Source of the DNA: Prorocentrum cordatum
Taxonomy: Eukaryota
Assembly: GCA_963575745.1 (NCBI GenBank)
Contig: CAUYUJ010000226.1
Coordinates: 434,001 to 498,000 of the forward strand
Length of the DNA: 64,000 nt
Direction: 5' to 3'
Positions 1 through 33,700 of the stretch are shown piece by piece. The first letter of the stretch is position 1. Every line of letters starts with the position of its first letter. The position numbers were made by a program, and so were the translations under genes. The notes below the pieces were generated by a model, which was not told the origin of the DNA, did not search any database, and saw nothing but the letters and a program-made list of their open reading frames with translations.

Positions 1-1
1 C

Positions 2-1237: not shown

Positions 1238-1409
1238 TCGGGGGTGGACAGAACCCCCAACAGTGACACGTCGACTAGTGAATTGTCCGTTTTCGGTTCT
1301 CGAGAGGGCGCCGTGGCCGTTATTTTCCAGGCCTGCGCCCGCCAGGTTTGGGCCTCAGGTCGTTTTCACTAAACCACGTTTCACTAAAGGGAGGTCTGTC
1401 CATCCCCGA
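1238..1409. mobile_element. MITE family B (TCGGGG-ended)
   Basis: TIR tcgggggtggacaga ... tctgtccatccccga, flanked by an acctt direct repeat. Close copy at 32361-32532; partial copies near 49330-49390 and 49650-49760. Confidence 0.75.
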
Positions 1410-1498
1410 ACCTTCGGGTGGTCTGCACGAAGTGTTCTCAGAACGCCTCTGGCTGAGGCCGTCTTGTTTTGACACATCGGGCCTGTGCTCTCAGAGCA

Positions 1499-1984
<486 letters not shown>

Positions 1985-2360
1985 ATACAGGCGGGGCAGA
2001 CCCCCCCGGGGGGGGAGGATGGAGGGGGGGGGGTTGGGGCCACACAACACAACACAGAAACAACCGCAACCATATAGATTGCAATCGCGTTCATCCGCCT
2101 TCCCCCCTCTTCCTCCCTCTCCTCCTCGTCATCTTCGTCCCCCTCCTCCTCCCCGTCCTCCTCGCCCTCGTCATCATCCTCCTCCCCTTCCTCCTTGCCC
2201 TCTTCCTCCTCATCCTCCGCCTTCTTCTTCGTCTTCCACCTCCTGGTCGTCTTCTTCCTCGTCCTCCTCCTCCCCCTCGTCGTCGTCGTCGTCCTCCTAC
2301 TCCCGATCCTCCTCGTCCCCCCCGCCATCCTCTTCATTCTTATCATGTGTGCCACGACGG

Positions 2361-4570
<2,210 letters not shown>

Positions 4571-4629
4571 ACTGCTACACCTCCATTAGTATGTCGAGTA
4601 CCACAACTCATACCCAGACTACAGATACC

Positions 4630-5965: not shown

Positions 5966-6103
5966 ATGTTGTGTTGTGTTGTTCGCCCCCCCCCCCCCAC
6001 CCCCCCCTTCGGACTGACCGGGGGGGCAGTGCCGGCCTTCTCCACTGTGGTGGAACCGGCGGATCCGCTCCCGCACCCCAGGGGGGCCATGCCGGCCTTA
6101 ACC

Positions 6104-14500: not shown

Positions 14501-15508
14501 ACATCCGGACCAGTCTAGGTAGATCGAGGCACATCCACAGACCTCCAGGGACGTCTGGAGCAGGTCGTGGCCTCGCCAGCGCGAGTCGGGCGGCGGCAGC
14601 AGGTGTGTTTTGAGCCCCTTTAGCGAGGCTACTGCGACAACGAGGTGGGCGGCTGCTCCGCCACCGGGCACTCAGGAGGGAAAGAAACACACAGACACAA
14701 GTAATCGTCGATCCCCCGGAAAATCTGCGAAAGTATGGGAAGTGGGGGGAAGACAAAAACCCAGAACATCTGGTAAAATATGGGGAATATCTTTGTTTGT
14801 GTGTATTTATTTGTGTGTGTTCTGGGGCCCCTTTAGGCACGGCGAGGCGATCCTGAAGGTGGCCCTGTGCCGCCACGCCACGTGGCTCCTGGAGGGCGGG
14901 CTCGCCCCCGACGCCGCGGCCGAGGCGGCGCTGGAGCACATGCGGAGGAGCGAGGGCCCAGGGGGCGGAGCGGGGGAACGGCGAGCACGGAGGCGCGTGC
15001 GGGGAGCGAGGGGGGGTCGTCGTCGTCGCCGAACGACGGGAGTGGCAGTGCGCCGTGCTCAGCACAACTGGCGCCCTCATCATCCAGAAGCCCTTATAAT
15101 GAGGACGATCGAGGTCGTTTCAAAGCAGTCCCAGGGGACTGCTTTGAACGCTAGGCAACGTTCAAAGCAGTCCCCTGGGACTGCTTTGAACGATGCGGAT
15201 GTCTGGCCAGAAGAGCGCAGGGAGGAACAGGAGGAGGAGGAGGAGAAGGTGGAGAGGGCTGTTGCAAGGTGCGCCGATGGCTCCTGTCCGTCGCCACGCT
15301 GTACCCAGGGGGGGAAGAGGTGGAGGAGAAGGAGGAGGGGGAGGGGTTCGAGGAAGGATCGGCGAGGTTTTCTCATCAGTTTCGGCCTCTGGAGGCCCAG
15401 CGGGACAACAAAGCCGCAGTTGCGGCGATCCTGAGTAATTCTTTCAAAATCGAAGATTCCCCTCTGCCCCTCTGCCTTCAGGGTTGTTTGCATATGTATA
15501 TATATATG

Positions 15509-15556
<48 letters not shown>

Positions 15557-15662
15557 CATGTATGTATGTATGTATGTATGTATGTATTGTATATATATAT
15601 ATATACATATATATATGTATATTTATACATATAAATATGTGTATATATATAGATTGTTGTTG

Positions 15663-15707
<45 letters not shown>

Positions 15708-18700
15708 TGTACTTGTCGTCTCCGTCGCCGCCGTCGTCGCCGTCCGTCCAGGGCCCCCCCCCGCTTCGAGTAGCGGTCACGGGGGGGCATCCTGGAGGGG
15801 CGCGTTCTGTCTCCCTCCCTGGGTTCTGGGGCGCCCCCCCCCCGCCGCGGGAAGCGGTCACGGGGGGGCGTTTTGGCGGGCGCGTTCTGACCACCTCCCC
15901 TGGGCCCTGGGGCACCCCCCTCCGCCGCGAGGAAGCGGTCACGGGGGGGGCGCCCTGGAAAGGTGAGCTCTCGACCCCTCCCCGATCCTCCTCACCGCAT
16001 TCTCCCTCCCGCCCTCCTCCTCCAGCGCTGTTCGGCTCAAGCAGCGCCGTTCGGCTCAAACCAGCGCCGGCGTCGGCAGTGGCACGGGCTCGCGCCTGCG
16101 CAGGATGGACAGATAATTACACGTATTGGCAAATATGTGCGAAACGGCGGCCCTGGAGGAAGCAGAGAAACATAGGGCCGCAGTTGCGGAGCCTCCATGA
16201 GGCAAAGACGGCGATGGGGCAGCTCGTGGATGGTGGGGCGACCGCGGTGGCGGACGGGGCGGCGAGGATGGCCGCAGTGGTGGATGGCAAGGCGGAGATT
16301 GGCGCAGTGGCGCATGGCAAAGGGATGGATGGGGAAACGGCGACGGAGTTGACCGCAGTCGCGGATGGGAGTGCGGCGGCGGAGGTTGGCAATGCGGAGA
16401 GGAGGGTGGCGGCGGAACTCATGGCGCCAGTGGAAGTTGGGAGGGCCGCGCCAGCGGCGGAGGAGAGGGCGCAGGCAACGCGAGCAGGACCGCTGGAGCG
16501 GATGGGAAGACGGCCGCGGGAGCGGTTGGGAAGGCAGCCGCTGGGGCGGATGGGAAGGCGGCCGCGAAAACCAATGGCAAGGCGCAGTTGCGCACGTCCA
16601 AGGAGAGGGCGCCCCCGCAGGGCGAGCGGCAGACGACGCGAAGGGCAAGGGGAAAACCGCAGTGGCGCATGTCCCAGGTCGAGGAGGTGCCGCAGCTGCG
16701 GACGCAAACCGCCCTGGGGTGTACACGTTGGAGTACTTCCAAACCTACGCTTTGCGCTGACATGGCAACTATAAGCAGCACAACGCGGCCTTGAAGTACT
16801 ACCGCGAAGAGTACGAAAACCCAGCTGACCCCTTCAACAGCCGATTTCCTGTTTTTGACCCCGCAGTTGTGGAGGCGATTTCGCGCATTATCAAGCGCAA
16901 AGGGCGCGGAGGGGCGCAGGACAACAGGGACTGGGAGTGGGGCCGCGCAGAACTGGCCCCGTGGTCTTGGCTGCAGCTGGTCGCGCAGATGGATGCGGCC
17001 GCAATGGAACTCGTCGTGCGCGGCCCTGACAACGACCGCAGTCGCGGATTAGTCAGGTGCGAGATTCGGCCGTGCCCTGGCAGTTACGACCACAATAGGC
17101 ACGCCAAAGGGGTGGACAGAGGAGAAGCGCAGGCAGTCCGCTTGCCCGCGTGGGATTTCGTTCTCACCCGCGACGACGGCTCAGGCATTCGCGTTCACCC
17201 GGAATGGTCCAGTCCGAAGTTCAGCCTGCGCGAGGTTGAGCCTCACTGGGGGCCCGTGCAGCCCCCGGGGGCGGGCCCCGGCAAGAGCGAGGGGCGCGGC
17301 ACGTACGCGTACTACAAGAGATTGCACGCCGTGCCAATATCGGGGCGGTTCGACGCAACCAAAGGAGCTGGGCTACAACCGAGGTGGGAGAGGGCTTGAA
17401 ACCGCAGTTGCGGAAACCGATCACGTGACACCGCGATCCTTTCACTCACTTCGCGCGTCGTCGTCCGCAGTTGCGGTGCCCCCGCTCGCACCCCGCGTGC
17501 GCCCGCCCGCAGTTGCGGCGCCCGCTCGAGTGAACTCCGCAGGCGGTTCGTCCGCGCATCACGCCCTTTGAGTCAGTCAGCAATTATCTGGGCTTGTCCG
17601 CAGCTGCGGCGCGCGGCTTCTCGCGCGAAGAGTCACGTAGAAAAACTCAACGGCTCATCTTGTCTTGCTCTTGTCGTCGCCTAATTAATTGTCTCTTCTG
17701 GATTCCCCTTCGTCAATGTTAGGCCCGTTGGTCCCACTTTGTCGTCTTCTATCTCTCCTCGATTCTCCTTCGTCGCCCCCCTCCTCCTCGTCCTTCCCAG
17801 TCCTGTCCTACCACGCTTGCGATCTTGAGGCCGCCCTCGGTGTCCTCGTTCCCTCCGTCGTTTTCCTCGCTGTCCTCTTCGTAATTGCCAATCCTGGCCT
17901 TCGCGCCCGTCGCCCTCTTCCTCATTCGCCGCAGCCGTGTCCGAGCATCTGTTGGGGGGGCGCGCTTCTCGCGGCGGCATGCCGCAGTTGGAGGCCACGC
18001 ATGAGGAGATGCTGGCGGCGCTGAGGGGCCGCCTGCAAACGCGCTCTGCAAGGGGGGGGAACCGCAGTAGCGAATCCCCCCAGCGAGGCCACACAGCGGA
18101 GGAGGAGCAAGCCGCAGTAGCGGATCCCACCCCGCGGCGCAGCCTAGCCGCAGTAGCGGTTCCCCCGAGCGAGCGCCGCGCGAGGCGACTTCGGCGTCGA
18201 GTTGCAGCAGGGATCGGCGGCGGCCGCCGCCGACGGGCGCAAGTTCCTCCGCGGCGCAGCCGCGCGAGCGGTCTCGGAGTGCCCCGAGGCGCAGGGAGGC
18301 GCAGTTGCGCCGCGCGCACGGAGCTCCCACTGGGATGACCGTGGGGGCTCCTAAGTGGATAGGGGGGTTAAATGTGGATGCCAAGGTGGGTTATATCTGG
18401 CCCAACCTGGCTTATAAGTGGGTTACAAGTGCCCTACGTAGCTTAGGGGGTTAACGATCTGGGCTAGGTGGGCTCCGCCCACTTAGCCGAGTTATCGACC
18501 CCTCCCAAGCTACTTAGGGCCCGTGTAACCCACTTATAAGCCAGGTTGGGCCAGATATAACCCACCTTGGCATCCACTTCTAACCCCCCTATCCACTTAG
18601 GAACCCCCACGGCCATCCCAGCAGAGCGCAGTTGCGCGCGCGGGACCCGACGCCGCCAGTTGCCAATGCTTCCACCAGGACCGCAGTTGCGCGAATACCT

Positions 18701-21700
18701 ATTAGTCCGTTTGACGCGGCAGGTCCGACCGCAGTTGCGGGAGTACCTCTCTCTTCGTCTTCGCCTGGGCCCGAAGACGAGGCCGCTTCTAAGGAGACGG
18801 CCGCCTCGGCCACTGCCCCCGAGGACAAAGCCCCCGCGGCCACGTCGAAGGCTCGGTTCGCGCAGAAGAGGCCTCGCCCTGTGGCGTCTCCTACGTCGCC
18901 TCCCCTGCAGCTTCCCTCGGAACCGCAGTCGCGGGGCAGCGCGGAACCGCAGTTGCGGGGCTCCGAGGAGCCACCGCGCAAGAAGCAGCGGACCCAGGGC
19001 ATCAGGTGCATGGGGGCAGCGCCCACGTGGAACCAGGGGCTCGCCAGGACAGAGGACGGCCTCCCCGTGCCGTCCACCCCCGCCATGGCTGTGAACGTGC
19101 TGGTCATCACTGCCGCGGCCACCAAGCAAGACGTCTTCGCCGCTGTCGATGTCCAAAAATCGGGAATCTGCATCGTCGCGCGGGACATCGAGGTGCTTCG
19201 GCCTCGGGAGGAACCGCAGTCAGCGGACCCCGCGCCCCTTCATGAGACTTTCCACGGCGCCGTCGTGGACGCCATCACGGCGAAGAACACGACCGCCAGC
19301 AGCGGCGAGCTGTATTGGATGATGGCGGAGCTCTTCGACAAGACTGGCCTCGTTGTGCGGCGCCCGCACTCTGCCGCAGAGGCCGCAGTTGCGGCGTCAG
19401 TCGTTGGGGCCATCCACGCCCTCACGATCGTACGGTTTCGCCTGAAGGGCAACGAGAGGAATCCTGCCGCGGTGCTCGGTTTTTCCGCAGTGACCAGGCA
19501 CGCGCTCCCCCATCCTCTTCAACCGAAAATCACGCAAGCAGAACACACACGTTTGGAGGAGTCTTTCGTGATGGAAGCCGTCGAAACCATCCATGCCCAA
19601 GATGTTCGTTTCCTGTGCGGCCTCTTCGACGTCCCGCCAGAGCAGTTCTCTGACTTCTGCCGCAGTTGCGGTGCGAGCTACAAGAGCCCGGTCGGAGTTC
19701 CGTTCCGCGCATGGCCCGCCCTGTTCGGAGGCATCAGATCTGGCACACGCGGCATGCATCCCTTCTTCATGGCCCCCATTGGCCCGAGCGACGCGCGCAT
19801 TGCAGACTGCCGTACCGACAGCGCAGGGCAGCACGCGGATCATGAGCCTCTCTGACTCCCCTACTGGATTCTTCGCACTGCCGAGTCTCTCATCGCACGG
19901 CGCTGGGTTGCACCTGAGCGCATGCCCAAGTGGCGGGAGGACAGTGACCGCAGTAACGGAATACGGCGACGCCTCGGCCTCCAAGCGCTGCCCCCCATCG
20001 GCAAGGTCGTTCAGAAGATGCTCTACCCCAAGACTTTCCAGGACCACTGGCGGGAAGGCGCCCACCAGAACATCATCTTCCTAGGGCACGGGCGAAGCGG
20101 CCAGAAAGGGAAGCACAACCAGGAGAAACCGCAGAGGTAAGCGGACCCGCAGTTGCGGGCGTTTCTTCCTTGCGCCGTACTTCTTTTTGCACGCGCATGC
20201 CCGTGGCGGACTCGGCGCGCATAGCCGCAGTTGCGGAACGATGTGCTGGGAGGGCCCGCCGTTGCGGCGTCAAAGGCTTGCTGGCTGCTTGAGTGCATGT
20301 GTCGGCGTGGGAAAGACCGCAGTTGCGGCTGGCGTTGGCGGAGGGCCCGCAGTTGCGGCGCGACCTGGCGCAGGGAGAAAGAATGCGTGCCCTTCCTCGG
20401 GCGCAGGGTGCCCATGAGAGCAAAAGGCGCGCAGGGAGGGGGGCGGCGGTGGTAATTAGGGTAACTATGTACTTGTAGTGGTCGTGGTACTGGTGGCGGT
20501 AGTGCTAGTGGTAGTGGTATGGTCGTGGTAGGAGGGTCATTGGTGTGTACTGGTAGTGGTCGTGGTACTGGTGGTGGTAGTGGTAGTGGCACTTGTAGGT
20601 GTAGTCCTAGTAGTACTAGTAGTAGTAGTCTTATTAAAAGTAGAAGAGCTAGTAGTAGTAGTCCTAGTATGTCTGGCCCATTGCTCTTGCTGAGGTCTGA
20701 GGTGAATCGTTTGGTCTCCGAAGTGGTCGGAGGTTAGTCGTTCGGGCCCCTCAGACTGACGGGCCCGGACGACTCACGCCCGACCGAGCATCCGCATCAT
20801 CATCATCACCATCGCCAGCATCACCATCATCATCATCACCACCCACCATCATCATCATCATCACCTCCACCACCAGACCCAGACCAGACCCTGACCAGAC
20901 CAGATTTTGAAACATGCCGCAGAATTTTGGGCTCGGGAAGTCTTTGGGCCCCTCACCCTCAGCCAGTGCCACAGGCGACGCACTTGGGGCAGTTTTCCTC
21001 AGTTGCGGAAGTGTCTGCCGTGGGCGCGGCTCGGTGCAATGAGCGACAGCTTCGGGAAAGGCGAGCAAAACGAAAAGGTGGGAGCCGCAGTGGCGGACGG
21101 ATCGCGGGGGATTTTCCAGAAGGCCACCGCGATTAGGGCGAAATTCAGGGACGGGAGCAAGAAGGTGCGCATCCCCGTGGTCTTGCTGGCCCCGCACCTG
21201 AACAAACGGGGCGGCCACTACCCTCAGCAGGAAAGGGTTCGGGAGTTCGCTGTGGAAATCATCGTGTCTGGGTTTTCGCAAGCGGAAGCCGACCACGAGG
21301 GCGCATGCGTCCAGATGTTTCCGACTCGAGAGCTGATGGAGAAAAAAGCGAAAGATTCTGCGTTCGAGACGTGCACCGAGCACAATGTCAAGAAAGCGAC
21401 AGGGCACCTCGCTGCGTGCTTCGACCGCAGTAGCGGGTCAGACATAGCGTATGGCAAGTTGTAGCATTCCCACTTGTGCCTCGTGTTGCGGGCAATCGCT
21501 GCAGGGGCCCGGCGGCCCATCCCCGCGGGCATGGAGTTAACGGAGGAAGAGCGCGCCAGGCTGCAGCGCGTGCTTGATGAGACTGGCAACACCAATATGG
21601 CCGCAGTGGTGGAATACGACGCTGTGGCCAAGAAGCTCACGCAGGAGGGCATGCTCATGGAAGTGCTCAGCTGGAGAATCATGGTCGAGGAGCCCACTGG

Positions 21701-24700
21701 CGCTTCCCTCATCAGCCAGTCGCTCAATAAGGGGGCGGACTTTGCGATGCGAGCGACTGAGGTTGCAGCGCTCAGCGTCCTGCGCAAGGCTGTTGACGCA
21801 GCGTTCGACGCCGCAGTCGCGGACCAGGTGGCCTTTGAAGGCGTGAGGACGTCAGTGATGCTCGAACTCGATCGTGTCCTTCAGGACCCCGGCTTCATTG
21901 AATTGTTTTCGTTTGTCGTTGGGCTCGGGAGCACGAAAGCGCAGTTCATCCACCTACTGCTCCAGTTCTGCGAGGTGTGCGTGAACTCGAAGAGAAGGGC
22001 TCTTCGGCTCGGTGCCTTTGGGATCGCTGCCGCGCTTCGCGACCACGTTCCGTGGGTCAAAATTGCGATTCTCATGCGATGCTACCGGAACGCGCCTCCG
22101 AAGATGCGCGGGGTGACCACCGCCGTGTGGTGCCCTGATCCAGAACCAGCCTGGGCGAAGAGTGAGACGCTGGACTTCTTGCAGGACATGAACGCCGTTC
22201 TCCGCATGTACTATCGCACGCTGAGCCCCGCCCTCCAGGACATGGGAAAAGGACAAGGCTTTGGAGTTCAAGGCGAATGTCGGCATACTGACCGCGGACA
22301 GCTACGCGCAGTACCTGAAAGGACACCTCGCCGAAGGAGCGACGCGTCATCGAATTTCGACATGCGCTCGTCCGCGCCGGCAGGGATGCGACGGAGCTGC
22401 TGCAGCCGAAGACCCACGCGGAAAAGCTCGCGAAGGCTGTGGGAGAGTTGCCTGTCGGAAACGAAAAGCCCGCTTGGTTTGATTTCAACGCGTTGCCGCC
22501 CGCGGACGCCGACAAGCCCGCAGTTGCGGGAAAGGCAACGGCCTCCAGGGAGGACGAGTTGGAGCCGAGGGTCATTTCCTTTGATCCCAATACGCACTTA
22601 TCCACAAACCAACATGACTGCAGGGACGCTACGGCCACGAGCCTCGGATCCTTCTCATTGCCAATCGACGAATGGAAGTGTTCAGCGGCAGCCCAGGAGT
22701 TAGGGCAGGAGCCTGCTCTTGCAGGCGCAGTCTTGTTGTGTCTTTGGGCGCGCCACAAGTCTGCAGTTGCGGAAGAGAAAGTGGGCGCGCTCCAAGACGC
22801 CGACACGGGCAAGCGCACCGCCCAGGCAACCGCCGCACACAAGGCACACTCCATCGAATTGTGGCCGTGCGCCCCAAAGGCGTCCAAGCTGCTGTCCACG
22901 AGCGCGCGCCCCGAGAGGGTGCCAGTGCAGGTCTGGGTCAAAGGAGGACCATATGCGCCTTCAACCAAGACCTTCTACCTGCTGCCAGAGTTCAAGCCCC
23001 CCTGCGGACAAGACGCCCGCCGAGGTGGCAGACCACGATGTGCGGTTGAGAACGTGGAACTGGGATGTTCAAGAGACAGTGCACCTCTTCTGGGCCGTCA
23101 ACAGAGTCACGCAGCAAGAGCTCCACCAGAGGAACGAGCGTATTGGAAGCGCAGTTGCGCGTGTCAACATGGAGCTCCAGGATGAAGAGCTGGCCGTGTG
23201 CGTTCCAGGACCAAGCGGGCTAGTGGTCGCCGTGAAGCTGCCCGCGCTGGTGAATACTGCGGACATCAGGCCAGGAGAAGAACTCCTTTGGGAGGCGAGG
23301 CCCAAAACCGCACAGAAGAAGAAGGCGGTCGAGGAGACGTGGAGGACGGATGCGAACAAAAGAGCAAAGGGCAAGGCTTCGGGGCAACCGCCGTCGAAGA
23401 AGACGAGGAGTGGCTTCGACGATAAAGGCAAGATGTCGCTCTAAGAAACCGCAGTGGCGGTTGCTCTACGAATTCGTTCCTTGATTCGGTGGTTTTCCGA
23501 AACCGCAGTGGCGGGTGTTCAGGCGCCGCTCGCTGCTGAATCATATCGCTTGCGACCGCAGTGGCGCAGTGCTGCAGTATTGGCTTGTTTGGTTAAGGAG
23601 GCCGTTAAGTGTCGCCGCAGTCGCGGATTGCTGACGTCCACGCACTGAGGTACGACCGAAGCTCTGAGTCCCATGCGGAAAAAAGTGTTGCCTTCAGTGC
23701 TGTCGCGCCTCTTCCGGGGAGCACGTGAGCGCCCTCCTCGCGCCATCTGGGCGCCTCCCTCCGCCCCGCCCCGCCCCCCGCCCCCCTTGCGCGGGAACAG
23801 CGAGCAGCTCATCGGGCCGCGCGGCCGCCCGAAACGCCCCCCCGGGTGCAAACGTTCAAAGCAGTCCCAGGGGACTGCTTTGAACGTTCTCGCAAAGGAG
23901 GGCCTCGGGGGGGCGCGCGCAGACGGAAGGGCGGCGCATGCGCGGATGGGGGCGCGAAAGTCGATGTAGGGTCTCCCCGCAGATTCAGTCCAGGCGCCGT
24001 CTGGCTCAGAGCGCGCCACTCTCGGACGCGACCTTGCTGCCCGCGCGGCCCTGGTTTCCCGCAGTTGCGGTAGGGTCATCCGCAGTAAGCGGACATGGGT
24101 TCTCCGAGCGAATGGAGCCCTGTGAAGGCGCAGATGGCCTTTAGCATCCACGGGGGGCGGCTCCCGCAGACGACCCCCCTCCCAGAGAAGGACGTCAGAG
24201 TGCTCGACGCAGGGCCCCTCGGGCCAATCACGTTCGTGCACGTGAACATGCAGAAGAAATGGTTGCTGAAGGTGTGCGCGAGGGGTAAACCAACGGCAGG
24301 AGCGTTGAAGGCCTCCAAGGTCTAGCAGGACCTCAAGGACACACCGGCGAAACAGGAAGGCGCCGCAGTTGCGGACGAGGAGAGCGACGATGAGAGAGAT
24401 GGCGAAGATGACCCAATGATGGCCTTGGTCAGTGCTTCGGGGGCCACGAAGAGGCAGGCCGCGACTGCGACGCCCACCAAGAAGCAGAGGACGGGAGAGC
24501 GTAGCTCCATAGATTGCCTCGAAGACTTGCTTGCCAAGAGGCGAGGCTGCGGACAGACGCGCGTCCGCTGTGCACTGCGCGCAGATGCCCGCCAGGAGCC
24601 AGTTGAAGTTTCCAGACGACAAGGTCGTTCGCCACGTGCGGGGGGCCAGCTTCAAGCGGCGGACGCTGTGGCTCGACGCTAAAGACCTTGAGCGATTGAT

Positions 24701-27700
24701 TTTGACGATCATGGACGACGTGAGCCTCGACGGGGTGCCCGACATCACGGACGGCGATAAGGGCGAAGCCGCAGTCGCGGACGGCGATAAGGACGAAGCC
24801 GCAGTCGCGGACGAGCCCCCCGTGGCGCAGGGAAGCGGGGCTGGTTGTTACACCGGCGCATGGAACTTCAAAGGCGCTTGGGTGACCACCATCACGCGCG
24901 AGTGCGCCAACCGCGGCAAGACGATCGAGATGGAGGTGAAGAAACTGACCAAGAACAAATGGGGGACAGCGAGGGATGCAAAGGCGTACGACTACGACTG
25001 GGTCAGAATCACGGACGAGCAAAGGAAGCAGGCGGCCCTGGACTACCTCGACGTCGTCGCCCCGTCTCTCCTGCTCTGAGCTCGAAACCGAACTGGCCGC
25101 AGTTGCGGCGACGCCGCAGTTGCGGGGCTGAACGGGGGCGCGGGCACTGAGGCACTGAACGCCGCAGTTGCGGGGTTGCCTTCCGAGGGCCAGAAGTCGC
25201 TTGTCTTTTCGAGGGGTTGGGGTGTTTCACGAGAACACACCCCCGCGTGCATACTGGGTGCACGCAGACGCAGAGCTTCGTAGAGATGCATACAAACCTT
25301 GTGCGCGAGATGAGTGGGGCTTCCGCGCGAGCGGTGTTCAACAAATGTATGTGTCTTTCCCTGCGCCTTTCCTTTCTCCCCTTGCTTCCTTCCCCCTCCT
25401 GCTAATTAATTACCCTTGCCATTTGTTATCCTTTCCCACCCACTCCCGCCCTTCACTGTCATGCCCGCAGCCGCGTGCCAGGCCCGAGCCGCTCGGCACG
25501 CGGACGCCCATGGACGTCCCGGTGGGCCAAACATGGCACGGCCACGAGGACGGCGAGCACTTCGAGGTGGAGTGGCTCTGTTATGACAGCGGGGCGCCAC
25601 CGAGGAAGACTAAGTACGGCACCACGGGGGTCGCGAACATTCTGAGCCGCACTTGCGGCGGTCATTGCCCCAAAAAGATAAAAGGTGCACGCTTGTGCGG
25701 ATTTTCCGTGCACGGCGAAGTGGTCGTTGTCGCAGTGCGGCGACGTAGAGCCGCCTAGTTTTCACCTGCGGCCAACTACGTGGCGGCCAGGCGCAGCTGG
25801 ACCGCCCGCAGTTGCGGCTCCCGCAGCGGCAGCAGCAATTCCAGCACCAGCAGCAATTCCAGCACCAGCACCAGGAGCACCCGCTGCAGCAGCGCCAGCA
25901 CATGCCCCCGCAGCGGCAGCAGCAGGTCAAGATCCTGCGGCAGCGCCCGCAGTACCACCACTTCCCCCTCCAGCAACAGTGCTCCCTCCAGCAGCTTCTG
26001 CACCCGCCGCGGTTGCGGCTCCCGCAGCACCAGGAGCAGCTGCATCGGACACCGCCGCCCCCGCAGGGCCATCAGCTCCTGGCGATCCTGCGCCGAAGTC
26101 AACCGCGCCCGCAGCAGAAGCACCTCCTCCACTGGCAGAACCCGCAGTTGCGGGTGGAGCTCCTGAAGGGGTGGCAGCTGGCACGCAGGCGCCACTTGCA
26201 GCGCGCATGCCACCAGCGCGACCGCTGGAGGAGAGCTGGTCCAAGGCGCAGGTCGCTTTCTTCCCCTGCCCAGACCCGCGGGCAGCAGCCGCAGTGGGGG
26301 CGCCCACTGCCGCGGCCTTGCGCCCGCGGGTCGCGGCGCCACCCCTGGCACCAGAGACAGTAGTACCCCTGGAAGACGGCCCAGAGATGGAGGCCGCAGT
26401 GGCGGCGAGGGTGCCTGACAGAGTTATGGCGCTCATGAGGGAAATCCTGTCGGAGGGTTCCTACATAGGACACGCGGCATTCGTGCCATTTACCTTGCGG
26501 TTCGGGCGTCGACCGTACATGTGGGAAGGCGAAAACCGCAAGGACATCCTTGCCTTCTATGCGCCCTGGGCCTTGGCGACGTGCACTGAGCCATGCGCCG
26601 TCGACGGCGTGGCGTGCGCACTTCACAGGGGATCCCGCAAGACCGCGGAGGCTTGGGCGTGGGGGGCGCAGGACCTGTGGCCAGTAACTCCTGAGCACCC
26701 TCTCCACGAGGTGCGCCACTGGGTGGCCGCAGTTGCGGTGGGTGCGCCGTGCACGGAGGGGGTGGGCCCGTTGAATGAGTTTTACGGGCCTCTAGGCCAG
26801 TGGATCGCTGGTACCATTTGCGATGGAAACTGCGGCGTGGACCTGATGGCCATGATGTTGCAGAAGCCGCTCAATGCCGAGACGCGCAGGTGGCTGCGGG
26901 AAGAACTCTACGAGTTCGGAGTAGCCCGCTGGGGCGTGCCACGGTTGCACGACGTGCTCGCAGTGACGCAGGAACTCGACCTCGAGGCTGTGAACGCGCA
27001 CCGCAGTTGCGGGGGCAGTGGCCCTCCCAGGCCCATCGTCCTGGACGGCGCCGGGGGCGAGGGCAAGCCAACAGAAGCGCTCGGGGGGCCAGGCGCGCCA
27101 AGCCCCCTCCTCATGGAAGCGTTGATATGGCAAACGGGTGTGAAGGGCGACGGGGCGCTGTTGGCCATGGCTGCGTCCATGGCAGAGGCGTCGCAGGAGG
27201 AACAGATCAGGGCGCGCGCACTGGCCCGCGCGCGCCCGAAGCCCGCAGCTGAGCCTGATAAGCGCAAGATATGCCCGCGCACGCTCCGAGACAGGCAGTT
27301 GGTGTGCCAGGCGTTGGAGAAGCACGCCCGCAGTCGCGGTTGGTTGGGCGTTGGCCCTCTGCCACGTAGTTCGCTTGTGTCGTTTTGCGGGCGGTTCGCG
27401 TGGCCGAAGGGCTGGGGGTTGGCCCGCCAGAGGAAGACGGTTGCGCAGTGGTTCTACAGGGGGCGCCAAAAGATGCAAGGACCGCAGTGGGCGCAATTGG
27501 CCAGCGCCGCGGCCGCGGCACGCAAGGCGCGCCGACAAAGGCTCCATGGTTGGAGGCCGCTCTATACGAATGGTGGTCCCACATGAGGTATTCGGTGGAC
27601 TGGAAGCGGCGGCGAAGCGAACCGCAGTCAGGGAAGAGAAGCCCAAAATGCTCGCCAGGTTCTCCCAATCCTTGCTGCTCACCAAGGCGAAGCAACTCGT

Positions 27701-30700
27701 CGCGGAGTACTGCGCGGAGGCCGCGAAGCGGGGGATCAAGCCGAAAGTGCCGCAGTTGCGGGCGCGGTGGTGGACCAAGTGGCGGCGCTCTTACGGACTG
27801 AGCATGAGGAAGCCGAATCGCAAATACAAGATCCCCAAGTGGTTGCTCCAATCGCGCTTCGAGACAATGATCCTGAACGTAGCGCGGGTCCGCGCAGCCG
27901 CGGAGGAGCTTTCGGGGTGCGACCCGCACATCCTGAACTGGGACCAGTCGCCTTTTCACCACAACGAGTCCTCCTCAGCCTCGAAGCCGACCTTGGCTGC
28001 GAAGGGGGGCATTGTTCCGCTCGTGGAGGCGCGCGACGACAGCAAGAGTCGGTGGGCCGCCAGCCTGACGGTGTCCAGCGACGTGGAGGACATCCGCAGT
28101 TGCGGACCTCCGCCCGCGGAGCTGATGTTCAAGGGGGGGGCTGTCGTCGCCGAGGACTTGGCCGCTCGTGCCCGCAGTAGCGGCTTCCCGCAATGGGTGA
28201 GCACGGCGACGTCTGAGAAGGGGTCCTACCGCACAGACGACGTCATATCGTTCCTGCGGCGGCACTTGCGGGCATGGCCCGACGACCCGCAGTTGCGGGG
28301 GAAGTGGAGAACCCTCATGGCCGATGACCACGGCCCGCACAAAGCGGACGCTGTGCGGAGACTCAGCTGGCAGCGCGGCTACGCGTTGATCATTCATGGC
28401 GGAGGGACGACCGCAGTTGCGCAGCCTGTGGACACGGACTTGAACCAGCACGTGAAACGCTTGTACATTGCCCTCGAAACCAAAGCGCTGGTGCAGCAGA
28501 TGGCGTTAGGGAAACACGTGCCGCAGTTGCGGCGTGCCGAGTGCGCGGACTTGATGGTTTCTGTGCTCAGCAATCTGCAGTTGCACGTGAACGCTGCGCA
28601 GGGTTTTCGGAAAGTCGGCATGCGGGCGCCTTTTGACAAGTCTGGCGGTCTGGAGATTTGCCGAGAGGCGGCGCGGCTCTTGGAAGCAGGGGGCCTCCGA
28701 GCGAAAGTGGATGCCGCAGTCGCGGAGGTCAGGGAGGAATGCCGGAAGGGGCGCCTCAAGTGGTCATACAATGACGCGCACCGGCTCATGCACCAGTACG
28801 AGACGCATAAAGCCTCAGATGCCGTGTTGAACGTGCTCGGAGAGGAAGTGCTTGGCCTGGGGCCAGGCCACGAGGAGAGCGACGAGGAGGCGAGGAGGCC
28901 GAGGGAGAGGAGGAGGGCGACGAGGAGGGCGACGAGGCCGACTGGGAGGAGGCTATGGCGGAGCATGGCTGGGGCGATGATGGGTCTCGGGAAAAGCAGG
29001 CACCTATGGGCTGCGTGGTGGTGGGCGCCCATGCGGCCGAGCAGGTGGAAGTGGCGACGTCTCTGGCAGACACGCTTCGCGAGGTGGAAGGTATGCTGCG
29101 CAACGTGGGCATGGAGAAAGTGGCACAACAATGCCGCGCAGAACAACACGAGCAGAAGAAGCGGCTGCGAGAGCTGGCACGGGAGGACGACGACCTCCTA
29201 CGAGCGTTGATTGCCCAGCGAGACCACGACGCCGCAGTTGCGGCGAAACAGAGGCGCCTGGCAACAGAAGCGAACGACAGGACGAAGGCCCTCCACGACA
29301 TCAAGAAACAGATTCGGGAGGCCGAAGTTGTTCTGAGGGAGAAGAAGGAGGCCGCAGTTGCGGTGGAGGCGGCCCTGGCTAACAAGCACGCCCTGGCCCA
29401 GTGGAACCCAGAGGAGTTTAAGGTCAAGAAAAACAGGATGGCTGCTTTGGACCGCTTGGCTCGCGGAAAGGGCGTCCTCTCGGATGAACAGAGGGGGGGG
29501 GGGGGGGAGGGGGCGGTTGGTTCAAAACGAACTGGGGCGAACATGTACAAGGAGCATAAAGAGCAATGGCCGTTGACGTTTGCTGGGTGGCTGCAGCGAG
29601 TCGCCAGCGACGCGGCGTCTGGGAATCGCCCGGCGCTGTTGCAGTTCGTGCACTCGGAGACTGCGAGGACCCTGGGCGGGCAAATGGCTCTGGTGATTCC
29701 CGCCGTAGCCCCTACAAGCCGCAGTTGCGGACCTGGGGGAAAACCATCAGGAGTCAAAATGAATGCGAAAACCGCAGTTGCGGACTCTCGACAGGTCGCG
29801 TCGCTGCGCGCCCTGCGGACGGGTGGCCCCAAGTGCGTTTCAATGTGTGTGGTGATGCGACAAAATTGTTTCCTCGCCCTCCCTCTGCCACTCCCCCGCT
29901 CCCCTTGTCTCCTCGTGCCATCCGACTCCAACGTGTCCTTCTCTCCTCCCATCTCCTGCCATCTAATCCCATCATCCTTCTGGGCGCGTCGGTAGCCACC
30001 GAGGCTCGACGCGGCGCCCGCGCAGCCGCCCGCGGCGACCATGTGGGCGCCTGCGCGTCCGGGATTGGCGTTGCAGGCGGTGCCGCGCGGAGCTCGCTTC
30101 GCTAACGCTGTGCACATCCACGCGGAGGAAAGCGAAGCCGCAGTTGCGGCAGCTGACGAGGAAACCGCAGTTGCGGAAGATGGCGACGACCAAAGGACGC
30201 AAGATGGCGACAGTACCGTCGCGTCCTCGGCTGCCTCCGCTGACGAGGCGGAGCCACAAGGAGATTCGGAGGCCGCAGTTGCGGCAACCAAGGAGCCCCA
30301 CGTGCCGAAAGTGCCGTCGAAGAGGCGGACCTGGAGGCGGGTGCATGTCATCGAGACGAGTCGTGGGTCTGAGAAGGAGAGATCGGTTTACGAGGCTTGG
30401 CAGAAGAAAACGCAAGGCGAAGCGGGGCGCATCGGCTTCTACGCGGCCAACTTCGGACAGAGCGCAGGGAAGCCCGCGCGACGCAGAGACGAGTTCGCGC
30501 AGATCCACGCCAATCCTGCTCAAATTATCGCCCTTTGCGAGTGCGACGACGACTGCTGCAGGGCAATCTCTGGGGGGGGCGACGCGCGCGAGAGCACAAC
30601 CGCAGTTGCGGGCGAGAAGTTCATGAATCGCCCCCGATACAACTACTTGTGCGTCAAGGGCGGGGAGCCTTCGGGGGCCCTCCTCATCGGCCTCAGAGAC

Positions 30701-33700
30701 CGCAGCGGCGGCCAAATTGATCGCGTGGACTTTGCGAGGCTTTTCCACAAGAAGGAGAAGTCGAAGCCGAAGAAGAAGAAATCCGCAGTAGCGGAGGTGG
30801 CTGCGCCAAAATGGCACAACACGTACTCGAGGGCGATGGTTGCGCGTGCCACCCTGGGCGAAGCGTTGCCCCATTTGGGGAAATCCTTCCGCGTCATGGC
30901 GGCGCACGTCCACCGCAATTTGGCCAACCAAGACTGGGGCCCGCAGAAACTCCAGGAATTCTACGAGTGGTTCGCCGAGTACGTCGCGAAGTGGAACGTC
31001 GAAGTCTGCATGGGGGACCTCAACATGTGCATGGTCCAGCTCGTGTCCTGGTGCCGCAGTCGCGGAGTCACGGTGGACGTCGCTGCGTAGACCCCCTGGA
31101 AGACAGCAGGCGGCCAGCCCAGGGCAGACGGTATGGCAACTCTGTTCATCAGTTGCCCTGGGAGATGCGAGCTTCGGCATGGCCTGGGCGCTCTGCACGA
31201 CGGCCCTGGCGGGTTCTTAACAAACTCCCCTGGCGCCTCTTTCCACACCTTCGATTACACGAATGGCCCTGGGAAGATGCTGCAGACTTACTTGCCGAAG
31301 GCTGGGGCCGTCGCAGACAAGCTTCGCGACTTCGCGATGCCATCTAACGCCTCCGAGGCCGCAGTTGCGGATTTCGAACAAACAATGGCGCGCCGTGCAC
31401 GGGGCGAGTGGGTGCCCAACCCCTTCCGAGTCAGGCAGGGCAAGCTGGGCGACGCGATCTGGAACGGCTCCGTCGGCAAGGCGCGAAACGGAGCGCACTT
31501 CCTCATGGTGGCTTTCACCCGCAACACGGGCCGCAGATCACCAGAGAAGCTTGCTGAGAGGAATGACAAGGAAAAGAAGCGGAAGCAAGAGAAAGGCGCT
31601 TGCAAGGGCGGCCAGAAGGGCAGCAACAACGGAGGCGACTCAGACACCGCAATTGCGGGAAAGGGCGGTGAGCCGCCGCTGGCATCTCACCGCCCGGTTT
31701 GGGGGTTTGAGCCTCTAGGTCGTGTTCCGACCCCCTCTTATGCCGCAGTTGCGGTTGGGCCCTCTGGCGCCAGCGGAAGCGGCACGTGGAGGGCGGAGGA
31801 TCCCGCGAGGGAGTGGAGGGCGGGATGGCGCGCTGATGAGTGGTCGAGCTGGGCAGGATGGCGCGCTGATGAGCAGAAGTGGTGGGATGATAATCGCGCC
31901 GCAGTTGCGGACAGTGCCACGGAGGGTTCGCCTCCTAATCGCATGTGGGCGGGCATGCCCGACCAGGCGCAGAACGCGGGCCACGCGGGGCCGTGGAACG
32001 ACCGCGCTCCCTGGACCTACGAAACGACACGTTGGTAATGGCCGCAATTGCGGGCAAGTGCAGCAGAAGGTTTGCGGCCGCAGTTGCGGGCAAGTGCAGC
32101 AGAAGGTTTGTGGCCACAGTTGCGGACAGCGCTTCGTCGAGACAAGTTGGCAACTCATCATCGACGTCATCGCCATCTTCCTCATCGATCGACATCACCA
32201 TCATCATCCTGCAGCTGCTGCCCCTCATGTCGCCTTGCGAGGTAAGCGTTCAAAGCAGTCCCGGGGGACTGCTTTGAAGACTGCCTTGTAGCGTTCAAAG
32301 CAGTCCCAGGGGACTGCTTTGAAACGACCTCTCGTCCTCATTTTAAAGGCTTCTGGATTATCGGGGGTGGGCAGAACCCCCAACAGTGACACGTCGCTTA
32401 GTGAATTGTCCGTTTTCGGTTCTCGAGAGGGCGCCGTGGCCGTCATTTTCCAGGCTTGCAACCGCCAGGTTTGGGCCTCAGGTCGTTTGCACTAAACCAC
32501 GTTTTACTAAAGGGGCGTCTGTCCATCCCCGATTATACCTGCTGGGTACATGATGCAGCAGCAGACAGGTAGGAGAGACAAAGTCACAAGAGCACGAAAT
32601 CAAGGAAGAAGAGCCCCGCGAACGAGGGGGGAGCGAGGAGGGAGCCGAGAGGGCAGAAAGCAGGAGGGCGGCGGGGGCGGAGGAGCGGGGCCCGCTGCCC
32701 GAGCCGGAGGGAGGGGGCGGGAGCAGCGGGGCGCCGGGGCTGCACAAACGCGAGGCGCGGAGCTCCGAGGGGGGGGGAGGCCACCCCACTAAGAGGAGGA
32801 GGAGGAGGAGGAGGAGGAGGAGGAGGAGGAGGAGGAGGAGGAGGAGGAGGAGGAGGAGGAGGAGGAGGATGAGGAGGATGAGGAGGACCCCCTCCCCCTC
32901 CTAGTTGTCGTGGCGGCGGTGGAAGAAAACGGGCCCACCACGAGGCGGGCCGCCACGAGGCGGAGGGAAGGGAACTCCGCAGTACGTCGCTGCCCTCCCT
33001 CCGCCGTCCCCCTCTCGGGGCCTCCTGGCCCTCGGCGCCACCGCTGGAGCCGCCTCGCAAAAGTCTGGTCGGAGCGCCCCCCGGAGCTGGCTGTCGTTGC
33101 CTGCAGCTGTGTCTGGTTTACCAGATCTCAACCTGCCTCAGGCGCCTTCCTGCCTCGAGAACCGGTGTGCTCTCGCTGCGTTTTGGGATTCCCTTGCAGG
33201 GCCTGAACCCCATCTGCCTTGTCCGCCTTCCTGCTTCGTGTCTTTGCCTACAGTGAGCGGCTTGAGTAAGGAACACTTACTTTTCAAAAGGGGCTCGGTC
33301 GTTCCTTAGGCTTGCATGCGCTAGTTGCAGTTCCTCATGCGTTATTTTTTCTTATTTATCGTTCCTTATGCGTTATTCCTTGGGATACAAAAAAAACGAG
33401 GTTTCGTTCCTTAGTTATCGTTCCTTTGGTCAGGCCGATGACTGTACTTCTTCCGACCGGCGCGTGGCGGCGACGGTGCTTCCGAGTCTTCCCCCAGGAA
33501 GTGCGGCGGCGGCCCCGGCGGGGGCGCGACCGGAGGGCTCATTATCGGCGGCTGCAGCGGGTGCGGCCACGCCGTGGGCGTGGCTTGCGATCCCCGTCGG
33601 GTGGTCACCGCTCGGGGCGATCGAAGTGGGTACGGAAAGACTTCCCAGGCGGGGAAATATACATGACCACCGCCTGGAGGATCGATTTCTCGGAGGCCTC

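What the first reader, a model, noticed from the sequence alone, without database searches (positions are those of the whole stretch)
15080..32360. 17.3 kb cargo-carrying pogo-type DNA transposon hidden in a host intron
Seen: matching ~113 bp TIRs, a DD35D transposase, and five further co-oriented, apparently intronless genes, all between asparaginase exons 6 and 7. Known: pogo/Tc1-mariner elements are normally a few kb with a single transposase gene and duplicate TA. Inference: this is a giant multi-gene transposon whose cargo (OTU-like peptidase, EEP nuclease plus paralogue, ParB-like and SET-like domains, two unknowns) could be a dedicated DNA-organising or anti-silencing kit. I do not recognise this architecture as a described family. 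This copy is decaying.
Basis: partly seen in the sequence, partly recalled or inferred. Interest (0 to 1): 0.92.

Follow-up and report, generated by a model that had tools for sequence, protein, structure and literature searches.

The report
Giant multi-gene transposon with RNA-hairpin tags
This is a decayed copy of a 13-17 kb, multi-gene relative of mariner-type jumping genes that is widespread in marine dinoflagellate-like DNA, and every gene it carries is studded on the sense strand with one small conserved stem-loop found nowhere else in the surrounding DNA.

Summary

Eighty metagenome loci encoding 33-53%-identical transposases keep the same genes in the same order and orientation: B, then E, then a protease-like/transposase fusion, then an EEP-like nuclease. 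D is optional. One 13.2 kb contig holds an element with ends built the same way. So the extra genes are conserved family genes, not picked-up passengers.

The "OTU" ORF is the N-terminus of the transposase gene. The "EEP plus paralogue" is one gene split by a nonsense codon. At least five of the six genes are broken here. OTU, ParB and SET assignments got no support from HMM or profile searches. The downstream asparaginase exon was not found.

CCGCAGTNGCGG occurs 71 times (at most 1 mismatch) on the + strand, only inside the element. In the 80 loci it occurs 564 times on the gene strand against 4 on the other.

Stem covariation shows it is a stem-loop. Clades carry their own variants, and copies cluster just after stop codons. 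I read it as an RNA tag on the element's mRNAs; its function is unknown. I found no description of it in print.

The parts
15083..15192 (+). Left terminal inverted repeat, with two palindromic units (cores at 15121-15146 and 15163-15188)
32247..32358 (-). Right terminal inverted repeat, with two palindromic units (cores at 32251-32276 and 32296-32321)
15653..17399 (+). Gene B. The conserved C-terminal domain lies at 16713-17399. The upstream low-complexity ORF A (15653-16774), in another frame, is possibly its N-terminus. Function unknown.
   Evidence: tblastn/blastp to L038:1246-3102, L058:1091-2443 and L071
18328..18621 (.). Nested 294-nt foldback (121-nt arms, 93% complementary), absent from other copies
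   Evidence: I1; read laying joint 18327->18622 in 3 of 4 runs
18716..20128 (+). Gene C. Function unknown and distribution narrow. It is interrupted by an in-frame TGA at 19853-19855.
   Evidence: 16 representatives at E<=1e-3, best P0099 at 57%; the tblastn alignment runs through the stop
21096..23444 (+). Gene D (about 800 aa in relatives; N-terminal LGVHPxNRGG motif). It is broken by a TAG at 21462-21464 (a Ser in relatives) and by two frameshifts.
23853..23888 (.). Internal copy of the TIR palindrome
   Evidence: (I10, 36 nt, 100%)
24098..25079 (+). Gene E (about 330 aa in relatives, two domains, no known fold). It is broken by one frameshift near 24465-24515.
25685..29749 (+). Domain order: Pro/Ala-rich N-terminus, Cys-protease-like DGNCG region, DDD catalytic core (about 27654-28832), coiled coil, conserved C-terminal domain. 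It is broken by at least three frame changes (near 27412-27475, 27603-27645 and 28883-28943).
30041..32038 (+). The TAG at 31088-31090 replaces the Trp of AW(Y/F)PWK.
15414..32125 (+). Array of sense-strand stem-loops CCGC-AGUN-GCGG. There are 39 exact copies and 71 with <=1 mismatch. Core GCNGTNGCG occurs 73 times on + against 3 on - inside the element. Clusters follow the gene ends at 17402-17518, 20147-20358, 23449-23697, 25097-25173, 29719-29783 and 32042-32125.

Best explanation
Region 15083-32358 is one dead copy of a giant cut-and-paste DNA transposon. It belongs to a previously unnamed, multi-gene lineage of the Tc1/mariner (ITm) superfamily that lives in dinoflagellate-type genomes.

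The family has ends made of arrays of 26-34 nt palindromes. It has a conserved co-oriented gene set. The first two genes, B and E, have unknown function. The third encodes a long protein with a Cys-protease-like N-terminal part, a DD35/37D mariner-fold catalytic core, a coiled coil and a conserved C-terminal domain. The fourth encodes an EEP-like nuclease. Some lineages add D and C.

Shown: the ends, the fold, the conserved gene order, multiple diverged and internally deleted copies, and the decay of this copy. Inferred: that the transposase moves the whole unit by cutting at the palindrome-bearing ends.

All genes of the family also carry dozens of copies of one small stem-loop on the coding strand. 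It has a 4-9 bp stem and an N-G-U-N loop closed by C-G. Copies sit in coding sequence in all three frames, in the UTRs, and in clusters starting 1-60 nt after stop codons.

I read these stem-loops as cis-acting RNA elements on the element's mature mRNAs. I propose they are read by a protein whose specificity co-evolves with the clade (candidates: E or B). I propose they set the fate of these mRNAs, for example 3'-end definition, stability or translation, or marking them as the element's own. The structure and its strand specificity are shown.
For: Element identity
- TIRs. The same palindrome-array architecture is found at both ends of L058, which holds an element of about 13 kb, and at the start of L038. 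Their transposases are about 40% identical to the window's.
- AlphaFold model of the core: pLDDT 83, pTM 0.78.
- Foldseek top 5 hits are Mos1 (best E 1.1e-4), followed by Sleeping Beauty and SETMAR.
- Conserved acidic residues and motifs across 21 and 45 aligned sequences.

Family and synteny
- 60 protein relatives; 108 metagenome matches, of which 80 loci were kept.
- Every homologous ORF lies on the transposase strand: E 15 of 15, F 43 of 43, GH 101 of 101 pieces, IJ 10 of 10, D 2 of 2.
- Order D-E-F-GH-IJ in L035, D-E-F-GH-IJ in L023, and B-E-FGH-IJ in L058.
- Copies at 85-99% likeness in 4 of 4 runs laid. The deletion joint 25179->30132 recurs in all four.

Stem-loop
- 39 exact 12-mers, all on +, all inside the element; 0 expected in 100 shuffles.
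- 32 further copies with one mismatch, all inside.
- In 80 loci (390,902 nt): 564 on the gene strand against 4 on the other. For the core, 1056 against 40.
- Clade-specific variants.
- Compensatory same-pair double changes: 40 Watson-Crick on + against 1 on - in 55 main-clade sources, 23 in the GGUG clade, and 18 in L063/64.
- In the CAGCUGU clade the four flanking positions pair in 82-91% of copies, against 22-31% when shuffled.
- On 80 aligned copies: 83.5% of cells paired against 61.9 +/- 1.4 in shuffles, and covariation 0.545 against 0.154 (0 of 500 shuffles reach either). Slid controls reach at most 0.123.
- A copy lies within 30 nt after the stop for 31% of 116 ORF ends, against 8% for random positions. 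In the window it follows the ends of B, C, D, E, FGH and IJ.
- Density is the same in coding sequence (1 per 365 nt) and non-coding sequence (1 per 388 nt). Frame use is 561 AVA: 180: 86.
- 0 copies in 1,105 nt of intron gaps, where 3.0 are expected.

Host type
- Spliced-leader relics upstream of element genes on the sense strand in 8 of 9 matches, including an exact copy plus a truncated copy in L043.
- A GC...AG|G intron in L035.
Against: - No transposase Pfam family reaches significance.
- No empty site or excision product was seen. The target duplication is ambiguous: TA on the right and TC on the left, or a perfect AT/AT if the ends are set two bases further in.
- No own genome is held. 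Copy number, ends and flanks of other copies therefore could not be counted.
- All runs laid were DNA-type contigs and no RNA holder was available. No transcript was seen here.
- The sense RNA and the non-template DNA strand have the same sequence, and all genes point one way. The data therefore cannot separate RNA from single-stranded DNA, or transcription direction from replication direction.
- The intron count is weak: Poisson P for 0 when 3.0 are expected is about 0.05 by my arithmetic, and the introns are AT-rich.
- Many hairpin sites are orthologous between closely related loci, so counts across loci are not all independent events.
Confidence: 0.6

Rival explanations
1. The stem-loops act as single-stranded DNA, not RNA. 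They would form hairpins on the non-template strand during transcription, or on one strand of a replication or transposition intermediate. A protein such as the EEP-like nuclease, a primase-like factor or the transposase would then read them.
For: The structure with a strand-specific loop fits ssDNA as well as RNA. The ends of the element are themselves arrays of hairpin-forming palindromes. The element encodes a conserved EEP-like nuclease of unknown target. Spacing of about one copy per 200-400 nt runs along the whole element.
Against: Copies cluster just after stop codons and next to start codons, which tracks the mRNA map rather than the DNA map. There are none in the intron gaps, though that count is weak. 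Among single stem changes, G-U-compatible ones are frequent: 70 wobble against 94 mismatch. No replication gene was recognised.
Confidence: 0.2
2. The 12-mers are double-stranded DNA binding sites for the transposase or another element protein. Their role would be to compact or synapse a very long element, or to act as polar roadblocks. This would be like subterminal repeats or internal enhancers of other transposons.
For: Long Tc1/mariner-type elements would need help to bring their ends together (established knowledge, recalled). The motif is element-specific and clade-specific.
Against: Compensatory changes that keep base pairing, and freely varying paired outer stems, are not expected of a duplex-read site. 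A duplex site gives no reason for 1056 against 40 strand bias. The motif is not in the TIRs themselves.
Confidence: 0.08
3. The 17.3 kb is not one unit but a pile-up: a small transposon with unrelated neighbouring or nested genes that happen to lie between two repeats.
For: There is at least one nested insertion, at 18328-18621. There is an internal copy of the end palindrome at 23853-23888. Gene C has a narrow distribution and is absent from the 80 loci.
Against: Gene order and orientation are kept in loci with 33-53% identical transposases. L058 holds B, E, FGH and IJ between its two palindrome arrays. Every gene of the window, C included, carries the same stem-loop, and the flanks do not.
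Confidence: 0.04
4. It is an integrated virus-like element (Polinton/Maverick-like or other) rather than a transposon.
For: Its size of 13-17 kb, its TIRs, its many genes of unknown function, and the many dispersed stem-loops recall the packaging signals of some RNA viruses (recalled).
Against: No capsid, polymerase, packaging ATPase or rve integrase was found by Pfam in 14 window ORFs, 7 L035 ORFs and 8 relatives. There were 0 relatives of the transposase in IMG/VR. The dinoflagellate Polinton-like elements described in PMC12166617 carry pPolB, MCP and rve integrase (passages read).
Confidence: 0.05

Closest known systems
Tc1/mariner (ITm) transposons: Mos1, Sleeping Beauty, SETMAR/Hsmar1
   Different: 13-17 kb with 4-6 genes instead of about 1.3-2.4 kb with one gene. 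The transposase is 950-1500 aa, with a protease-like N-terminus and a long conserved C-terminal extension. The TIRs are arrays of palindromes. No Pfam transposase model reaches threshold. It has a sense-strand stem-loop array.
Ciliate TBE1 and Tec elements (multi-ORF relatives of Tc1/IS630 in alveolates; recalled, not tested here)
   Same: Alveolate hosts. A Tc1-like DDE transposase travels with further ORFs between inverted repeats.
   Different: They are about 4-5 kb with three ORFs of other kinds. No homology of the accessory genes was tested here. No stem-loop array is known to me for them.
Ginger1 DNA transposons (PMC2836005; abstract and passages read)
   Same: A DDE transposase fused to an OTU or Ulp1 cysteine-protease domain; TIRs of 40-270 bp.
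   Different: In Ginger1 the protease is C-terminal to a Gypsy-integrase-like core (YPYY, H2C2, GPY/F). The target duplication is CCGG or CCGT, the ends begin TGTNR, and the size is 2.6-7 kb with a single gene. Here the protease-like part is N-terminal, the core is mariner-like, and the flanks are not CCGG.
Protein-read mRNA stem-loops: histone 3' stem-loop/SLBP, iron-responsive element, Roquin decay element (recalled)
   Same: A short stem with a conserved small loop and a stem of free sequence. They lie in UTRs, in some cases in several copies, and on the sense strand only.
   Different: None of the 4227 Rfam families reaches its gathering score on the element. Here there are dozens of copies per element, also inside coding sequence. 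They are private to one transposon family and have clade-specific loop and stem variants.
Dispersed packaging-signal hairpins of ssRNA viruses and bacterial uptake sequences (recalled)
   Same: There are many copies of a short motif spread over coding and non-coding sequence. Inside genes they are written into tolerated reading frames (here 561 of 827 coding copies fall in the Ala-Val-Ala frame).
   Different: This is a DNA transposon with no capsid gene recognised. Uptake sequences are not structured and occur on both strands.
Giant eukaryotic transposons: Starships, Mavericks/Polintons, Teratorn (recalled; search listings)
   Same: Size class, and several genes moved as one unit.
   Different: They use other mobilisation enzymes: a tyrosine recombinase, an rve integrase with a polymerase, or piggyBac. 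Only a weak language-model lead links D to DUF3723, a Starship accessory family by my recall (score 0.89, 131 shared features). It is unsupported by HMM.

Membership tests
Tc1/mariner (ITm) superfamily | RNase-H-like DDE/D catalytic domain of the Tc1/mariner type | tested here: met
Tc1/mariner (ITm) superfamily | Conserved acidic triad with about 34-37 residues between the 2nd and 3rd member | tested here: met
   D136, D263/D264 and D299/D301 of the query are invariant or nearly so in 21 and 45 sequences. The spacing is 35 or 37, depending on which Asp is catalytic. Which residue is catalytic was assigned by analogy, not measured.
Tc1/mariner (ITm) superfamily | TA target-site duplication | tested here: inconclusive
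   The right flank is TA and the left flank is TC. Alternatively both are a perfect AT if the ends are set two bases further in. Only this one copy has both flanks.
Tc1/mariner (ITm) superfamily | Significant match to a Pfam transposase model (DDE_1, DDE_3, Transposase_1) | tested here: not met
   DDE_1 E 0.14 in the window. DDE_3 E 0.074 and DDE_1 E 0.14 in 1 of 8 relatives scanned.
Tc1/mariner (ITm) superfamily | Compact single-gene element (about 1.3-2.4 kb; recalled) | tested here: not met
   17.3 kb here. L058 is about 13 kb with 4 genes, and L035 has 5 genes.
pogo/Tigger group | DDE_1 core with CENP-B-type N-terminal HTH domains | tested here: not met
   No HTH_Tnp_Tc5, CENP-B_N or HTH_psq hit in the window ORFs or in 8 full-length relatives at E<=1. 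The solved structures that matched are mariner or Tc1.
Ginger1 | Gypsy-integrase-like core with a C-terminal OTU/Ulp1 domain, CCGG/CCGT duplication and TGTNR ends (PMC2836005) | tested here: not met
   Integrase folds score below mariner folds. The protease-like part is N-terminal. The flanks and ends differ.
Polinton/Maverick | Protein-primed polymerase, capsid proteins, packaging ATPase, rve integrase | tested here: not met
   No such Pfam family in 14 window ORFs, 7 L035 ORFs or 8 relatives. There were 0 relatives in IMG/VR. Remote folds of B, C and D were not tested.
   D181 and C184 (the DG[DN]C motif) and a His are invariant in 19 sequences. There is no Pfam hit and no PDB hit by profile.
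Exonuclease-endonuclease-phosphatase (EEP) fold (genes I+J) | Conserved N...E...(D/N)...GDxN...D...(S)DH motifs; Pfam PF03372 | tested here: inconclusive
   Motifs GNxGxxxGNWG, PAQIIxLxE, VHxH, LMGDFNM, DSCGIF and GSHYP are present in 11 sequences. The language-model neighbours include Exo_endo_phos clusters at 0.87-0.89, below the tool's 0.9 line. There is no Pfam hit and no PDB hit by profile.
   None of 25 members hits either family at E<=1. There were 0 PDB hits by profile. Only short motif resemblances exist (LGVHPxNRGG; GxELxxE). The fold was not predicted.
Any curated RNA family (Rfam 15) | Score at or above the family's gathering threshold | tested here: not met
   There were 36 sub-threshold rows. 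The higher-scoring ones (miRNA-precursor models) fall on the TIR palindromes or the TA-rich repeat. No row is an IRE or histone stem-loop model.

The most novel reading that the evidence does not exclude
The family carries a private post-transcriptional code. An element-encoded protein (E or B) would recognise a clade-specific stem-loop written dozens of times into every mRNA of the element. Through it the element would control its own transcripts in a host that regulates genes mostly after transcription. Possible effects are protecting them, defining their 3' ends, driving their translation, or gathering them for cDNA recycling into the genome. Reader and tag would co-evolve so that related elements in one genome do not cross-talk.
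Probability: 0.3. Interest if true: 0.92.

Novelty: new variant of a known kind. Interest (0 to 1): 0.86.

Why it matters
DNA transposons of the Tc1/mariner kind are the textbook example of minimal, single-gene mobile elements. A widespread lineage that moves 13-17 kb, with a fixed set of four to six genes that all lack family assignments, would widen what this superfamily can do. It would also add a new class of giant elements in dinoflagellates, whose huge genomes are poorly annotated.

The sense-strand stem-loop array is the more surprising part. It is a structured motif, supported by covariation, that is specific to one mobile-element family. It is written through coding and non-coding sequence and changes in concert between clades. 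I know of no comparable tag on the mRNAs of a DNA transposon.

The motif gives a simple sequence handle for finding these elements. It also gives a directly testable question: what reads it, and what does it do to RNA or DNA.

Tried and rejected
Searches and scans that gave nothing
- Own-genome search: no genome is held.
- Earlier findings of this scan: nothing by place, sequence or words.
- The look-up of sequencing runs: no RNA holder listed.
- Read laying gave only DNA-type contigs. No joint across the whole element (an empty site) was among the rows shown, and many rows were not shown.
- IMG/VR: 0 relatives of the transposase.
- A scan of IMG/VR for two 12-mers 5-35 nt apart gave 30 contigs. 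Each has only 2-7 core hits on both strands together. In 29 of 30 the spacing is a fixed 9 nt, and there is no strand bias. I rejected these as unrelated.
- Profiles against PDB sequences gave nothing relevant for the transposase (best E 0.097, unrelated), IJ, D or F.
- D: the DUF3723 lead from the language model (0.89) is not backed by HMM.

Literature
- The motif strings gave only primers and cloning sites.
- Keyword searches for such an element or hairpin in dinoflagellates found nothing fitting.

Ideas dropped
- 12-nt in-frame insertions or micro-introns: the motif sits at aligned, conserved protein positions.
- Stop-codon reassignment for the in-frame TAGs: relatives have Trp or Ser at those positions.
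- A purely linear motif without structure: I held this after and dropped it.
- A self-complementary duplex between copies: positions 5-8 do not stay complementary.
- IRE identity: no IRE model among the Rfam rows.

Not found
- The spliced-leader 3' part is not in the window's element.
- No downstream asparaginase exon was found.


Full report
**The ends**

The repeat finder pairs 15111-15153 with 32289-32331 (43 nt, 95%) and 15153-15192 with 32247-32286 (40 nt, 90%). Read directly, the two ends match from ATCCAGAAGCC inwards for about 110 nt, with a 2-nt indel.

Each end carries two copies of a 26-34 nt perfect or near-perfect palindrome with a CAAAG...CTTTG core. A fifth copy lies inside the element at 23853-23888.

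The flanks read ...CATC|ATCCAG on the left and CTGGAT|TATC... on the right. That gives TA on one side and TC on the other, or a perfect AT/AT if the element starts two bases further in. The target duplication is therefore not settled.

**The transposase**

Pfam finds nothing at E<=0.1 in 14 long + strand frames. On the core it gives only DDE_1 at E 0.14. Of 8 full-length relatives, 1 gives DDE_3 at E 0.074 and DDE_1 at E 0.14.

The protein nevertheless has 60 relatives at 38-89% identity in the large protein collection, none with a Pfam domain on record. The alignments show conserved [11 protein letters not shown], (M/L)ADDxxPHK and [13 protein letters not shown] motifs. There are 35 or 37 residues between the last two acidic positions.

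It is therefore a mariner-fold DDD enzyme. The label 'pogo' is not specifically supported.

**One gene, not three**

Relatives are 950-1500 aa proteins.

In the window the pieces lie in different frames: 26318-27412, 27475-27603, 27645-28880 and 28943-29749.

In many loci F and GH are separated at exactly the same point. In L035 the separating sequence is an AT-rich segment of about 156 nt, read as GC...AG|G. This looks like an intron, not decay.

The Cys-loop DG(D/N)C and a His are invariant. However, no OTU model or solved OTU structure is hit by sequence profile.

**The other genes travel with it**

The metagenome scan gave 108 relatives, and 80 loci were kept. They are 33-53% identical and have GC content of 44-64%.

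tblastn and blastp of the window's and L035's ORFs against these loci show conserved order and orientation:
- E upstream of the transposase in 15 loci.
- IJ downstream in 9 loci.
- D upstream of E in L035 and L023.
- B first in L038, L058 and L071.
- Every homologous ORF lies on the transposase strand.

L035 has five intact genes.

L058 (13,172 nt) has palindrome arrays at both ends, built on the same CAAAG...CCCC(T/A)GGG...CTTTG plan. Between them lie B, E, the fused F-GH (1380 aa) and IJ.

C has 16 representatives at E<=1e-3, the best at 57% identity, and is absent from the 80 loci. D has 38 relatives.

None of these proteins has a Pfam family.
- IJ has EEP-like motifs and Exo_endo_phos neighbours in the language-model atlas at 0.87-0.89.
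- D gave only a weak DUF3723 lead.
- E's model (pLDDT 79) has no convincing fold match.

**It is a repeat family, and this copy is dead**

Contigs of 4 of 4 runs cover all parts at 85-99% likeness. The internal deletion joint 25179->30132 recurs in all four runs. A second joint, 16193->19715, occurs in two runs.

Breaks in this copy:
- IJ has TAG where relatives have the Trp of AW(Y/F)PWK.
- D has TAG for a Ser, plus two frameshifts.
- C is read through a TGA.
- E has one frameshift.
- The transposase gene has at least three frame changes.
- A 294-nt foldback at 18328-18621 is missing from other copies.

**The host**

Two Asparaginase_2 blocks lie upstream on the same strand. No further asparaginase piece was found downstream in 32360-39000. 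An intronic position is therefore plausible but not shown.

**The new observation: a 12-mer private to the element**

CCGCAGTTGCGG occurs 39 times in the 64 kb window. All copies are on the + strand and all lie between 15414 and 32089. Shuffles expect 0.00. With one mismatch there are 32 more, again all inside the element. Position 8 is free.

The core GCNGTNGCG occurs 73 times on + and 3 times on - inside the element. In the other 47 kb it occurs 7 times on + and 8 times on -.

In the 80 loci, CCGCAGTNGCGG is found 564 times on the gene strand and 4 times on the other. 59 of 80 loci have two or more copies. The core counts are 1056 against 40, and nothing is conserved outside the 12 nt.

Loci without this motif have variants of their own, equally one-stranded:
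- CCGCGGTGGCGG in nine loci.
- CAGCTGTNGCGR in four loci.
- CCGCGGTTGCGG in L013.
- A longer GCAYCC-led form in L063 and L064.

**It is a stem-loop**

*Main clade.* Double changes that hit both partners of one pair and restore Watson-Crick pairing number 40 on the gene strand and 1 on the other. The nine GGUG-clade loci have 23 of them (CCACGGTGGTGG occurs 16 times). L063/64 have 18.

*CAGCTGT clade.* The four positions on either side of the motif are complementary in 82-91% of 78 copies, against 22-31% after shuffling partners.

*Formal test on 80 aligned copies (62 distinct).* The structure (((((((.((....))))))))) gives 83.5% paired cells against 61.9 +/- 1.4 in shuffles. The covariation score is 0.545 against 0.154 (0 of 500 shuffles reach either). 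Slid controls reach at most 0.123. Four of the pairs show all four Watson-Crick types.

*Caveat and energies.* Many sites are orthologous between close loci, so these are not all independent events. The variety of stems within single elements is nonetheless plain. The hairpins fold at -6 to -11 kcal/mol, and either strand folds equally well. What is strand-specific is therefore the loop, N-G-U-N closed by C-G.

**Where the stem-loops sit**

Density is the same in homologous ORFs (1 per 365 nt) and elsewhere (1 per 388 nt). Inside ORFs all three frames are used: 561 copies read Ala-Val-Ala, 180 Arg-Ser-Cys/Arg-Gly and 86 Pro-Gln-Leu-Arg. This explains the AAVA, PQLR and RSCG peptides seen throughout the translations, including those of relatives.

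Of 116 ORF ends, 31% have a copy within 30 nt after the stop, against 8% for random positions. In many loci the 12-mer starts directly after the transposase stop codon, in clades with different variants.

In the window, copies or clusters follow every gene end:

| Gene end | First copy or cluster |
|---|---|
| B (stop 17397-17399) | 17402 |
| C (alignment ends 20128) | 20147 and following |
| D (stop 23442-23444) | 23449 and following |
| E (stop 25077-25079) | 25097 and following |
| Transposase (alignment ends 29749) | 29772 |
| IJ (stop 32036-32038) | 32042, 32078, 32114 |

By my count, 18 core hits fall in the 300 nt after these six ends. The remaining 55 fall in the rest of the element.

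The intron-like gaps between F and GH hold 0 copies in 1,105 nt, where 3.0 are expected. No Rfam family reaches its threshold.

**Host type**

I recalled the 15-nt 3' part of the dinoflagellate spliced leader and searched for it with up to 2 mismatches. It matches 9 times in the 80 loci, 8 of them on the gene strand upstream of element genes. By my arithmetic fewer than one match is expected by chance.

L043 has an exact copy followed by a truncated second copy and then a stem-loop. Together with the GC...AG|G intron, this points to dinoflagellate hosts, and to element mRNAs that are trans-spliced and sometimes recycled into DNA. The window's element has no such relic.

**Reading**

The element is a giant multi-gene member of the Tc1/mariner superfamily. 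The evidence for this is strong.

The stem-loops are a selected structure on the sense strand. Their link to stop codons and UTRs, their absence from the intron gaps and their tolerance of G-U pairs favour an RNA role. Since the variants change in concert between clades, I infer a co-evolving protein reader.

Single-stranded DNA roles cannot be excluded, because all genes point one way and no RNA data were available. The purpose is inferred, not shown. It could be 3'-end definition, stability or translation, or marking the mRNAs as the element's own.

**Prior description**

My searches found no prior description. The motif strings returned only primers. Keyword searches found nothing fitting.

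Ginger1, the known DDE-plus-OTU transposon, differs in every defining feature that I could compare. The dinoflagellate Polinton-like elements carry other genes.

Noticed in passing
window 18328-18621: A 294-nt foldback with 121-nt arms (93% complementary) sits between B and C. Contigs in 3 of 4 runs join 18327 to 18622 without it. It looks like a nested MITE-like insertion specific to this copy.
   Followed up: partly
window 14300-14933, 20006-20639 and 32052-32685: Summed contig depth here is hundreds of times that of the rest of the stretch (about 1,000-44,000 against tens to hundreds). So the DNA just outside both ends of the element, and the GTA/GGT-rich low-complexity tract between C and D, belong to very high-copy repeats. 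GTA/TAC microsatellites also occur in L013, L015 and L016.
   Followed up: partly
window 15485-15746: A TA/TATG-rich simple repeat lies just inside the left end. It gives many spurious inverted repeats and sub-threshold miRNA-like Rfam hits.
   Followed up: no
L043:470-530; also L079:202, L031:668 and 2958, L013:223, L019:1318, L062:1756: Relics of the dinoflagellate spliced leader lie upstream of element genes on the sense strand. In L043 a near-full copy is followed by a truncated second copy. This suggests that parts of these elements have passed through mRNA and back into DNA.
   Followed up: partly
L035:7783-7938 and the matching gaps in L004, L010, L014, L019, L023 and L055: An intron at one conserved position of the transposase gene, between the Cys-loop region and the following SDYL helix. 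It is AT-rich (GC 0.13-0.55) and often carries TAATTAATTAATTAG-like runs. The window's copy and several fused ORFs lack it.
   Followed up: partly
L081-L110 (IMG/VR contigs): Thirty viral contigs carry two copies of the same 12-mer. In 29 of them the copies are exactly 9 nt apart. They have few other copies and no strand bias. This is probably a conserved coding motif of a phage gene, unrelated to the element.
   Followed up: partly
window 25179 -> 30132: A recurrent internal deletion, with GGTT or GGTTT at the joint, removes the whole transposase gene. It is seen in contigs of all four runs at depths of 48-354. This indicates an abundant non-autonomous derivative shared between samples.
   Followed up: no
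window 1-6000: Composition differs sharply from the rest of the window: GC 0.43-0.45 at 2001-6000, and GC skew -0.66 at 2001-4000. Not examined.
   Followed up: no
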